Assembly: GCF_003334405.1 (NCBI RefSeq)
Contig: NZ_QOWM01000015.1
Source: Escherichia coli
GTDB lineage: Bacteria; Pseudomonadota; Gammaproteobacteria; Enterobacterales; Enterobacteriaceae
Direction: 5' to 3' (one strand)
DNA: 64,000 bases
Positions 29,101-32,100 of the stretch are shown in pieces (the first letter of the stretch is position 1; every line of letters starts with the position of its first letter). Made by a program: the position numbers.

Positions 29101-32100
29101 TATAGTGCAAAAGGCTCGGTGTGCAGACTTACGCCAGCCCAATCAAGCCGTAGTGCTTTAGTTTTGGGGCTTAGGTATGGTGGAAAAAAGCGACTCGTTA
29201 AGCTTACTGAGCTCTATGTATTTCAGGAGTCGGTCAGTAAGTTAACGATCCAAGAGGCTCATCAATCATAAGAGATGTATCAATCTTGCGAGACTCTCAC
29301 GGATTTTATCGCCGTCATAAATAGCAATCTCTTCAATATTGTTACCAATGAAAGTTTCAGCTGCCTGGATGGCTATCAGTTCAGACATACCAACGTTATC
29401 AGCCAGCAGGCGTGCTGCAATGACCTTGCTTTCAAGAGTTAGGATGACCGGCCTGTAGCCTGCGCGTTTGATTTTGATACAGTGTGAAATCAATTTCTCC
29501 ATAGGTGCGGTGGTCACTTGGAATGCAGTCGTACCCACCTGAAAGGCCCCTTCACGGTCAATGTGTGGATCATTAGCATTGGCCCTGCGACTACTGATTT
29601 TAACATCTAGGGAAACGTAGCTGATGTTTGGCTTCGATAAGATTCTGTAGCACCGCCTCAGTGGGGTTGTCAGAACATTCCGCTGCCGCCTTAAGAATAT
29701 CGCTTACTAGAGATGAAACTGGTTGATTGTAATCCCGGTCGACCGTTACTCTATGTTTATCCGGATAATTTTGGCGTACACATTAAGTGAAGAAAACTTC
29801 AAAGTGATTTGAAACAGATGTTGTATTCACTGGCTCATTTACATTAACTTGAGTGTTGTTCAGCACATGTTGAAACGCAGCTGTAAGGAAGATGATACAG
29901 CCAAGATGTATCCTTCATTATGGGGATTGGCGCGATGACCACCACGGCTTAGCCCGATTGATTATTTGGAAATTGATTAGAATGCATAATCTGGGCTGAG
30001 CTCACTTAAAGTCTCTAATGTTTGACTTGGAGATTTGGGGGGCAGTGGCTTTCAGTTTTGTTAACTCTAACATCTGGTTTACGTTCCTTTTGGAACAAGA
30101 AGCAGAGGTCTGCTAAGTAATGGTTGTACTGCTTGTGATAGGTATGACTGCATGTTCAGCGAGCAAGAATGGCTTAAAAGTTCTGTTACTGAGCACCCCA
30201 TGAAGTTAGAACGATGTCATAACGTGCACGTAACCGTTGAACTGTTCTCTTACAGATAATCTCTACATAGCTATTATTGCTTAGGCGGTAGCTATGTAGA
30301 TGGTTTTTGTAATATTATATTAAAAGTTCATACAGCGACTATAGCATCATTGCGAAAAATATCAGGAGGTGAGTTTAATGTTACGAAAAAGCAAACTTAC
30401 AGAGATATATAAAAGGTTTGGTTTTACTGAAGAAAATACAGGTAACGAAAGTATTGCTGTATATTCTATTAAAACAGGGCACTACCATAACGCGGACATA
30501 CTTCCACTAAATAATGAGGTTAATGTAAATCAAACCTTTGAAGAATATAGGCAGTTAGGTTATGCATGTCAAATTAAAAAATATCAGTCTTATGAAGAAG
30601 CACATAAGGAATTATTTAATGGCTTCTTTAGCGTCGATTCAACTAAAGAAAGGTTGATTAAAGATTATAATACTTTCACAGATTCAATTGTAAAAATTCA
30701 CTCACCTACTGCAACTTATTCCTACATAAATTCAAAATATTACTTAAATGGTGTTATTGGCGAAGCTAATGTTGTTACGGAAATATTAGAGAGAATACAA
30801 CATAGGCGTCCAATTCTGTTTTTGATTGAGGCTGCAGCCGGTTTTGGAAAGACTTGCACGGCGTATGAATTATTGAGGGAGATTATAGTTAACAATATAG
30901 GGAAAATACCATTATTTTCAGAACTATCAAGGAATAGGCAAGCAAAAATATTCAGGTATGTACTATTAGATGAAATTGATAGAAGTTTTCCTTTGTTAAG
31001 CTCAGCCTTAGTAAGGAATGAAATAAGAGCAGGAAATGTACCAGTTATACTTGACGGGTTTGATGAACTATTGCATGAAAGTACAAACGGAATTGAAAAT
31101 AATTATGAAAAAACAGAGCCAATGCTGGAAACAATAAGTGAGCTTCTAACTGATAGTGCAAAAGTGGTTTTGACAACTCGAAGAACAGCTATATTTGACG
31201 GAGATGAATTCCATCAGTGGATAGCATCACATCAAGAAGATTTTGATGTGATAAGAATAAGAATTCATGAACCACAAATTGAAGACTGGCTTCCAGGTCA
31301 ACGTTTAGATGAAATTTCATCGACAGGATTTCCTCTTAACAAATTATCAAACCCTGTACTGCTATCATTTCTAAGATGCATCGACGACACCGACTTTAAT
31401 AAAGTTATAAGCGACCCAACAACTATAGTGAGGAAGTATTTTGATTCAATGCTTGAGCGAGAAAGAAAAAGACAAGATTTATTAATGTCTATTGAAGATC
31501 AATATACTATACTAAAAATAATAGCTGACGACATGGTCGAGGGTAACTACACATCTGAGTCTAGAGAGTATATATCGTTAGTCATAACTGAAAAGAATCA
31601 ACAACTCTTGGAGGCTACAAGAAAGCTTTATACTGTAGATGAAAGACCAACTACTGACGAATTAGTTAATAAATTAGCATCGCATGCTCTATTAGATCGG
31701 TCAGGCTCAGAAAACCAAGGTATTGGATTTGTTAATGAATTTGTTCTTGGTAATTTTGTTTCTGAAAATATTATTAATGATAAGTCAAATGAATGGATTG
31801 GTGATAAACGTTTTATAGAACCAGCAGTGCAATCTTATATGCCGAGGATCGATGATGAAAAAGAATTACTTTGGCATAGCTTAGAGTTTGCTTTATATTT
31901 TATGTCAGGTAATGATAAAATCCTTTATAGTCATTTGCTTATAGGAAAAGTTCCATTAGATTTAAAAAATGATAGTGTTGAGCAATTGTCTATATCAAAA
32001 CTTTCTTTAGGCGATATAAATATAATACATGATACTATCTTTGTTGATTGTTCCTTTTTTAGCAGCATATTTACCTGTGGTAATTATAAAAACGTTACAT

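What the first reader, a model, noticed from the sequence alone, without database searches (positions are those of the whole stretch)
29266..30377. Higher-GC block with a degraded gene between the ankyrin operon and the NTPase/RSH pair: possible module junction
Unlike the very AT-rich neighbours, 29270-30360 has near-core composition and contains a frame-broken ORF. Composition breaks like this usually mark junctions where cargo modules were swapped in; here it sits directly upstream of the candidate defence pair and probably contains its promoter.
Basis: seen in the sequence. Interest (0 to 1): 0.3.

Follow-up and report, generated by a model that had tools for sequence, protein, structure and literature searches.

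The report
Dead restriction-enzyme gene at cargo junction
The slightly GC-richer block is mostly the broken remains of a restriction-enzyme gene, left when an E. coli mobile island lost the rest of that restriction-modification system and now carries a NACHT/RelA-SpoT gene pair there; it is an ordinary evolutionary scar.

Summary
Window 29266-30377 has GC 0.42, against 0.29-0.33 in its immediate neighbours. The chromosome core is 0.50-0.56, and 26% of same-size windows in the island are at least as GC-rich.

The block has three parts:
- 29226-29893 (minus strand) is a dead DUF4928 gene. It lacks its first ~94 codons and carries a TAA stop, two single-base frameshifts and a 40-bp deletion. Six near-invariant residues are replaced.
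- 29894-~30212 is non-coding DNA of unknown origin.
- 30213-30377 is the 5' flank that travels with the NACHT/RelA-SpoT pair in other genera.

A sister E. coli island keeps Dcm plus a full-length DUF4928 reading frame (one nonsense codon) in the same slot. Its homology to the window stops inside the gene at 29893 and resumes at 33646.

The "module junction" reading is therefore supported. The promoter claim is untested. PGAP already annotates the relic as DUF4928. Interest is low.

The parts
29226..29893 (-). DUF4928 (PF16280) pseudogene relic, corresponding to codons ~95-327 of a ~327-aa restriction-endonuclease-like protein. Lesions: 5' truncation at 29893; TAA stop at 29783-29785; +1 base near 29608; 40-bp deletion near 29277/29278; -1 base near 29253. 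Substitutions at near-invariant positions: G173E, G181E, L184H, D210A, H219Q, N235I.
   Evidence: Pfam E 5.8e-56 to model positions 121-288 of 306. tblastn in two frames plus a C-terminal fragment. Profile HMM at maximum sensitivity matches positions 101-299 only. DNA alignment with L002 and L007. Residue table.
29044..29225 (.). 3' flank of the relic (GC 0.40). It is shared with the sister island L002 inside one continuous 86%-identity alignment.
28685..29043 (.). AT-rich stretch with no annotated gene. The 118-aa TTG ORF here is not called by PGAP or in L002. Homology with the more distant island L009 ends at 28861, which is the left edge of the cargo slot.
29894..30212 (.). Orphan non-coding piece of unknown origin (GC 0.43). 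It is neither detectable DUF4928 or Dcm sequence nor part of the NACHT cassette as shared with Citrobacter. Weak homology to Citrobacter may reach back to about 30120.
   Evidence: No hit in Rfam, six-frame Pfam, NCBIfam (one chance-level match, E 0.026, 14.8 bits against a curated cut-off of 114), the 5.8-billion-protein search, plasmids or phages. Boundaries.
30213..30377 (+). 5' flank that travels with the NACHT/RSH cassette. It contains a hairpin at 30250-30312 followed by a U-run, and a Shine-Dalgarno AGGAGG at 30364-30369.
   Evidence: 84% identity to Citrobacter L015 starting at 30213. Alignment of five genera. Inverted repeat I5.
30378..32483 (+). NACHT NTPase gene (701 aa): NA-iREase2 domain, NACHT domain and C-terminal pentapeptide-like repeats.
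32483..33388 (+). RelA/SpoT-domain gene (301 aa), overlapping the NACHT stop codon. A terminator-like hairpin lies at 33408-33437. Homology to the Citrobacter cassette ends at 33439.
33440..33645 (.). Right-hand orphan spacer between the cassette and the island backbone.
33646..34355 (.). Backbone resumes here, marking the right edge of the cargo slot. It is 92.7% identical to L002. Positions 33647-33728 are 91% identical to L009.

Best explanation
The block is non-functional debris at the cargo slot of an integrative mobilisable island in the ileY-ssrA region of the E. coli chromosome.

Inferred history:
1. An ancestor of this island carried a type II restriction-modification module in the slot downstream of the relaxase/ankyrin/146-aa backbone genes. 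The module was a C5 cytosine methyltransferase (Dcm-like) with an overlapping DUF4928 restriction-endonuclease gene.
2. The endonuclease gene was inactivated.
3. A deletion or replacement event removed the methyltransferase, the first ~94 codons of DUF4928 and whatever cargo lay beyond.
4. A low-GC NACHT + RelA/SpoT cassette with short orphan spacers now occupies that place.

The remaining two-thirds of the DUF4928 gene has GC 0.44, down from about 0.47 in the sister-island (L002) copy.

Shown: the identity of the relic, its lesions, the breakpoints, and the mobility of the NACHT/RSH cassette.
Inferred: the order of events, and that the relic has no function.
For: Identity of the relic:
- The repaired translation matches Pfam DUF4928 at E 5.8e-56.
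- PGAP annotates the same relic as 'DUF4928 family protein' in a 99.9%-identical genome. There it is one pseudogene entry plus one 126-aa CDS.

What intact DUF4928 is:
- The family is about 320 aa, with 840 cluster representatives at E <= 1e-3.
- The AlphaFold model has pLDDT 94.
- The gene overlaps a PF00145 methylase gene in L002 (8 bp) and in L024/L025 (4 bp, with Vsr alongside).
- Dcm-DUF4928 fusion proteins exist (P0038, P0088).
- A Vsr + DUF4928 + C5-MTase cluster is reported in PMC9035990.

Decay:
- The profile HMM at full sensitivity finds only positions 101-299.
- There is no trace of Dcm in the window.
- The lesions are mapped.

Junction:
- L002 8283-12107 matches window 29893-26108 at 86%. 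L002 1-692 matches window 34355-33646 at 92.7%. Between these, L002 carries the DUF4928 5' end, Dcm, a 66-aa gene, two ThiF-like genes and a UvrA-like ABC ATPase instead.
- L009 shares backbone up to 28861 and again at 33647-33728, with a DEAD/DEAH helicase as cargo.

Cassette mobility:
- Homology to the window is limited to 30213-33439 in Citrobacter, 30305-33357 in Morganellaceae and 30368-33360 in Pectobacterium, each in a different neighbourhood.
- The pair keeps GC 0.31-0.34 in the four other hosts measured (Citrobacter, Morganellaceae, Pectobacterium, Vibrio).

Tolerance of damage:
- IS3 is inserted at 29891-29898 in one isolate, IS2 at 30288-30294 in others, and an IS3-family element at 29479 in Enterobacter.
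- Some genomes appear to lack 29617-32890 altogether.
Against: - Ka/Ks of the relic against the L002 allele is 0.19, no higher than the intact neighbouring genes at 0.16-0.21. Most of the divergence therefore accumulated under purifying selection, and the decay is comparatively recent. That statistic alone gives no sign of neutrality.
- About 320 bp (29894-30212) is unexplained. It folds somewhat better than shuffles on the + strand (z -3.1), so the block is not entirely accounted for as a pseudogene.
- All 62 E. coli copies are at least 99% identical, so conservation within the species says nothing about constraint.
- The order of events is inferred from only one sister island that retains Dcm.
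- No DUF4928 protein was shown here to cut DNA.
Confidence: 0.85

Rival explanations
1. The surviving C-terminal DUF4928 fragment is a functional small protein. It would be the 126-aa ORF at 29266-29643, which PGAP annotates as intact WP_306308318.1. Possible roles include a retained nuclease core or a dominant-negative or regulatory fragment.
For: PGAP calls it a CDS rather than a pseudogene. The fragment covers the predicted beta-sheet core of the nuclease domain. Ka/Ks against L002 is low at 0.19.
Against: It lacks the N-terminal ~190 residues and the conserved C-terminal Y302/N303/R305/E310 segment. It carries D210A, H219Q and N235I at positions that are 91-98% conserved in the family. No ATG/GTG/TTG start gives more than the 90-aa ORF found. 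The region tolerates an IS insertion and a 3.3-kb deletion in other strains. The low Ka/Ks is expected if inactivation is recent.
Confidence: 0.04
2. The 29894-30377 part of the block encodes a structured + strand RNA that belongs functionally to the NACHT/RSH system. It could be a leader, an attenuator or a small RNA ending at the 30250-30312 hairpin with its U-run.
For: The + strand fold of 29894-30377 has z -3.59, with 0 of 100 shuffles as stable. The minus strand has z -1.95. For 29894-30212 alone the values are + strand z -3.1 and minus strand z -0.3. A terminator-like hairpin lies 65 nt upstream of the ATG.
Against: The background of 56 island segments reaches z -3.09, so the signal is extreme but not unique. 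Rfam gives no match at E <= 5. Nothing upstream is conserved in Vibrio, Thalassotalea, Nitrosomonas or Halothiobacillus loci. Citrobacter shares only about 30120/30213 onward, and its hairpin arms are only partly complementary. Morganellaceae and Pectobacterium share even less. IS2 sits inside the hairpin in several pig isolates.
Confidence: 0.06
3. There was no swap. The block is simply ordinary island backbone, and its GC differs by chance or by gene-specific composition.
For: The block's GC of 0.42 is close to the island mean of 0.386, and 26% of island windows are as GC-rich. Within E. coli, the relic and the NACHT/RSH pair are almost always found together (53 and 54 genomes).
Against: Island L009 has the same backbone but lacks 28862-33646 altogether. 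L002 has the relic's full-length counterpart plus Dcm, and no NACHT/RSH pair. The NACHT/RSH pair occurs without the relic in at least four other genera.
Confidence: 0.03

Closest known systems
Type II restriction-modification systems with a C5 cytosine methyltransferase, often with Vsr (for example the Vsr/DUF4928/C5-MTase cluster reported in SGI1-related elements, PMC9035990)
   Same: Intact relatives of the relic sit in exactly this arrangement. The methylase gene overlaps the DUF4928 gene by 4-8 bp, with Vsr alongside in L024/L025. The DUF4928 model has a restriction-endonuclease fold.
   Different: In the window the methyltransferase is gone without trace and the endonuclease gene is truncated and broken. 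Nothing here is a working R-M system.
EcoT38I restriction endonuclease (PDB 7e8r/7edb), the nearest solved structure
   Different: Only 12% sequence identity. A profile search of PDB sequences found nothing significant. This is similarity of fold class, not membership of the same family.
Decayed or orphaned R-M modules, such as the orphan dcm-vsr pair of E. coli K-12 (from general knowledge, not tested here)
   Same: One partner of an R-M pair is lost and the system decays in place. The sister island L002 shows the usual route: intact Dcm with a nonsense codon in the R gene.
   Different: Here the leftover is the R gene fragment and the M gene is the one deleted. That is only viable because the R gene was already dead, or was truncated by the same event.
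Variable cargo (defence) slots of integrative mobilisable elements and genomic islands
   Same: Conserved flanks (relaxase/ankyrin/146-aa genes on the left, 33646 onward on the right) surround interchangeable cargo. Examples are an R-M module plus ThiF/ABC genes, a DEAD/DEAH helicase, and the NACHT/RSH pair. E. coli C has homologous ankyrin and 146-aa genes at the same chromosomal locus next to a type I R subunit, but its slot flanks were not mapped.
   Different: No recombination site or flanking repeats were found at the slot edges, so the exchange mechanism is not defined.

Membership tests
DUF4928 (Pfam PF16280) | Significant match to the family profile | tested here: met
   E 5.8e-56, model positions 121-288 of 306. 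An own profile of 65 members gives E 7.7e-35 and 6.6e-15 for the two frames.
DUF4928 (Pfam PF16280) | Full-length uninterrupted reading frame of about 320 aa with the conserved N-terminal region (W17, Q61, G88-R89-T90, R92) | tested here: not met
   No match to profile positions 1-100 even at E <= 100. A stop codon, two frameshifts and a 40-bp deletion are present.
Type II R-M restriction endonuclease | Adjacent cognate DNA methyltransferase gene | tested here: not met
   tblastn with the L002 Dcm protein finds nothing in the window. The feature is met in relatives L002 and L024/L025 and in fusion proteins P0038 and P0088.
Type II R-M restriction endonuclease | Restriction-endonuclease (PD-(D/E)XK-type) fold | tested here: met
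   [not shown]
Type II R-M restriction endonuclease | Sequence-specific DNA cleavage blocked by the cognate methylation | not testable with these tools
   No biochemical data. The only paper in the library that mentions DUF4928 just lists the gene neighbourhood.
Cargo slot of an integrative mobilisable island | Conserved flanking backbone with different gene content between the same two boundaries in related elements | tested here: met
   The right boundary is 33646/33647 in both L002 and L009. The left boundary is 29893 in L002 and 28861 in L009.
Sigma-70 promoter of the NACHT/RSH operon inside the block | -35 and -10 hexamers at proper spacing, above chance and conserved in relatives | tested here: inconclusive
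   3 sites found against 5.1 +/- 2.5 expected. The one + strand site (30249-30277) is not conserved in Citrobacter.

The most novel reading that the evidence does not exclude
The ~320-bp orphan piece (29894-30212), together with the 30250-30312 hairpin, could be a lineage-specific structured + strand RNA that regulates or partners the NACHT/RelA-SpoT pair, rather than junk left by the rearrangement.
Probability: 0.05. Interest if true: 0.45.

Novelty: already known. Interest (0 to 1): 0.12.

Why it matters
It matters little in itself. It is a clean, dated example of turnover in a defence-cargo slot. A Dcm-linked restriction system was replaced by a NACHT/RelA-SpoT cassette, with the breakpoint mapped inside the restriction gene.

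Practical value:
- It corrects an annotation: the 126-aa 'DUF4928 family protein' is a pseudogene fragment.
- It gives fold and gene-context evidence that DUF4928 is a restriction endonuclease family.
- It delimits the portable NACHT/RSH cassette to about 30213-33439, which tells anyone cloning that pair what to include.

Tried and rejected
- Dcm remnant in the window: none.
- Direct or inverted repeats at the slot edges that might mark a recombination site: only short chance-level matches.
- Rfam on 28600-30800 at E <= 5: nothing.
- Six-frame translation of 29880-30380 against Pfam and NCBIfam: nothing meaningful.
- Six-frame translation of 29885-30230 against 5.8 billion proteins: nothing at E <= 10.
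- blastn of the orphan piece against plasmids and phages: no match.
- Distant blastn of 29760-30370 against 5,426 E. coli genomes: only the same locus, so it is not an IS or MITE remnant.
- Conserved upstream sequence in distant NACHT/RSH loci: none.
- Consensus promoter scan: below chance expectation.
- Hairpin at 30250-30312 as a conserved element: only partly complementary in Citrobacter and absent in Pectobacterium.
- One Python run timed out without output.

Full report
**Where we are.** The window is E. coli chromosome. It is 99.9% identical over the finding to strain FORC_081 and to about 60 other complete genomes. The finding lies in a low-GC island of about 30 kb (window ~8000-38000) between a tRNA at 11160-11232 and tmRNA at 39455-39817. 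The local gene order is relaxase, a 135-aa gene, an ankyrin gene and a 146-aa gene, all on the minus strand. Then comes the block in question. After it come a NACHT gene and a RelA/SpoT-domain (RSH) gene on the plus strand, then two ParB-like genes and a serine recombinase.

**Observation.**
- The block 29266-30377 has GC 0.423. The 146-aa/118-aa ORF stretch is 0.29, NACHT 0.327 and RSH 0.30. A binomial test of the block against the pooled flanks gives z of about 7.9.
- It is not core-like overall. The core is 0.50-0.56, and only 29350-29800 reaches 0.46-0.48.
- It is unremarkable inside the island, whose mean is 0.386. 26% of equal-size windows are as GC-rich. The contrast comes as much from two unusually AT-rich neighbours as from the block itself.
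- The frame-broken ORF is real.

**What the broken gene is.**
- A repaired translation matches Pfam DUF4928 (PF16280) at E 5.8e-56, covering model positions 121-288 of 306.
- Against a 327-aa full-length reference assembled from close homologues, tblastn maps residues 95-189 to window 29893-29609 and residues 190-299 to 29607-29278. A short C-terminal piece maps to 29287-29255, and each piece is in a different frame.
- A DNA alignment with two relatives locates the lesions. They are a CAA>TAA stop at 29783-29785, one extra base near 29608, a 40-bp deletion near 29277/29278, and one missing base near 29253.
- Of 33 positions conserved in at least 90% of 65 diverse family members, 6 lie in the missing N-terminus and 4 in the deleted C-terminal stretch. 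Six more are substituted (G173E, G181E, L184H, D210A, H219Q, N235I).
- The relic spans about 29226-29893.
- PGAP annotates it as one DUF4928 pseudogene plus a 126-aa 'intact' DUF4928 protein. The latter is most likely an artefact.

**What DUF4928 is when intact.**
- The family is large, with 840 cluster representatives at E <= 1e-3, typically 310-340 aa.
- An AlphaFold model from a 65-sequence alignment is confident (pLDDT 94.4, pTM 0.86).
- No solved structure is related by sequence.
- In three independent contexts the gene directly follows, and overlaps by 4-8 bp, a PF00145 C5 cytosine methyltransferase gene. Two of these contexts also have Vsr.
- Two representatives are Dcm-DUF4928 fusion proteins (P0038 and P0088).
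- The one paper in the library that mentions the family lists Vsr, DUF4928 and a C5 methyltransferase together in SGI1-related islands.
- DUF4928 is therefore best read as the endonuclease of a Dcm-type type II R-M system. Its activity was not tested.

**The junction.** A draft E. coli genome (locus L002) carries a sister island. Its order is relaxase, 135-aa gene, ankyrin, 146-aa gene, DUF4928, Dcm, a 66-aa gene, two ThiF-like genes and a UvrA-like ABC ATPase.
- L002 8283-12107 matches window 29893-26108 at 86% identity. L002 1-692 matches window 34355-33646 at 92.7%. The two islands therefore share both flanks and differ between 29894 and 33645.
- The left breakpoint falls inside the DUF4928 gene at about codon 95.
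- The window has no trace of Dcm.
- A more distant island at a tRNA-Leu site (L009) shares backbone up to 28861 and again at 33647-33728. It carries a 1646-aa DEAD/DEAH helicase in between.
- E. coli C has homologous ankyrin and 146-aa genes at the same chromosomal locus, next to a type I restriction subunit. Its slot flanks were not mapped.
- So 28861-33646 is a cargo slot. The window's slot holds the tail of an old R-M cargo plus a newer cassette.
- A truncated gene cannot be ancestral to a complete one. The Dcm-bearing state therefore came first at this junction.
- L002's own DUF4928 has an independent TAG at codon 270, with Dcm intact. Other close relatives are also truncated or internally deleted.
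- None of 5,426 complete E. coli genomes retains Dcm or the 5' end of the gene in this form.

**The incoming cassette.**
- The NACHT protein has an NA-iREase2 domain (E 3e-33), a weak NACHT match and pentapeptide-like repeats. The downstream protein has a RelA_SpoT domain.
- The pair is conserved, with the same overlapping-gene layout, in Enterobacter (99%), Citrobacter (89%), Morganellaceae (86%) and Pectobacterium (83%). It is also conserved in Vibrio (59%), Thalassotalea, Nitrosomonas and Halothiobacillus.
- In each of these the neighbours differ. DNA homology to the window is confined to 30213-33439 (Citrobacter), 30305-33357 (Morganellaceae) or 30368-33360 (Pectobacterium).
- The cassette has GC 0.31-0.34 in the four other hosts measured, whatever the surrounding locus composition.
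- Weak collinear similarity to Citrobacter may extend back to about 30120.
- In Enterobacter sichuanensis the segment 29479-34102 is 98% identical to the window. It lies next to sequence matching the window's tmRNA region, and an IS3-family element cuts the relic at 29479. The relic, spacer and cassette have therefore moved between genera as one piece.

**What remains unexplained.** Positions 29894 to ~30212 (GC 0.43) belong neither to detectable DUF4928 or Dcm sequence nor to the portable cassette.
- The following searches all failed: Rfam; six-frame Pfam and NCBIfam; a six-frame query against 5.8 billion proteins; plasmid and phage blastn; and distant blastn against all complete E. coli genomes.
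- The + strand of this piece folds better than shuffles (z -3.1, against -0.3 for the minus strand). The whole 29894-30377 stretch gives z -3.59.
- However, 56 control segments from the island reach z -3.09. Nothing comparable is conserved upstream of distant homologues.
- I treat this as a weak lead, not a finding.

**Promoter.**
- All upstream genes are on the opposite strand, so the NACHT operon needs its own promoter somewhere in 29894-30377.
- The consensus scan is below chance expectation (3 found against 5.1 expected). Its single + strand site is not conserved.
- A hairpin with a U-run (30250-30312) lies between most of the block and the ATG.
- Only 30213-30377 travels with the pair.
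- If the promoter is cassette-borne, it lies in the last ~165 bp (GC 0.35), not in the GC-richer body. This needs transcription-start mapping.

**Is the relic under selection?**
- Ka/Ks against the L002 allele is 0.19, like the intact neighbours (0.16-0.21). Ks is 0.57, against 0.24 for the backbone genes.
- The two alleles therefore diverged mostly while functional, and inactivation is recent on that scale. The statistic neither supports nor excludes residual function.
- The region tolerates disruption. IS3 sits at 29891-29898 in isolate AHB21, within a few bases of the old breakpoint. IS2 sits at 30288-30294 in several pig isolates. Match boundaries indicate a deletion of 29617-32890 in several genomes.

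**Verdict.** The composition step is real, local and modest. The block is a pseudogene relic of a restriction endonuclease, plus about 320 bp of orphan DNA, plus the cassette's own short leader. The 'module junction' reading is right in substance, and the promoter suggestion is open. This is a known kind of thing, already partly annotated, and of low interest. The NACHT/RelA-SpoT cassette next to it is the more interesting object. It got no PADLOC hit for the NACHT protein and only a weak one for the RSH protein.

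Noticed in passing
window 30378-33388: The NACHT (NA-iREase2 + NACHT + pentapeptide repeats) and RelA/SpoT pair is a conserved, portable two-gene cassette. It keeps GC ~0.31-0.34 in the other hosts measured and has more than 1,600 NACHT homologues at E <= 1e-30 across Gamma- and Betaproteobacteria. PADLOC has no model for the NACHT protein and only a weak PDC-S33 hit for the RSH protein.
   Followed up: partly
L002 1648-8008 (E. coli GCA_003358795.1, QOOJ01000064): In the same slot the sister island carries a UvrA-like ABC ATPase (708 aa), two ThiF/E1-like proteins and a 66-aa gene next to the Dcm gene. This may be another defence-type module.
   Followed up: no
window 33646-34355 (no CDS annotated in 33389-34440): This non-coding stretch is more conserved between islands than the backbone genes are. 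It is 92.7% identical to L002, and 33647-33728 is 91% identical to the distant L009, against 85-86% for the backbone alignments. It may hold a functional site or RNA.
   Followed up: no
window 29891-29898, 30288-30294 and 29479: Three independent IS insertions into the block in other strains: IS3 in isolate AHB21 within a few bases of the old breakpoint, IS2 in Res13 pig isolates inside the hairpin upstream of NACHT, and an IS3-family element in Enterobacter sichuanensis.
   Followed up: yes
window 30250-30312: A + strand hairpin with an 11-bp perfect stem CTACATAGCTA/TAGCTATGTAG, followed by TTTTTG. It lies 65 nt upstream of the NACHT start and is only partly conserved in Citrobacter.
   Followed up: partly
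window 29266-29643: RefSeq/PGAP lists a 126-aa 'DUF4928 family protein' (WP_306308318.1) as an intact CDS inside the relic. This is very likely an annotation artefact.
   Followed up: yes
[not shown]
   Followed up: partly
L009 (E. coli XJW9B277, tRNA-Leu island): A complete relative of the island, with a tyrosine integrase at tRNA-Leu and the same relaxase/ankyrin backbone (85% identity). It carries a 1646-aa DEAD/DEAH helicase as cargo. The window's copy lacks that integrase and has IS1 and IS3 elements around it.
   Followed up: partly
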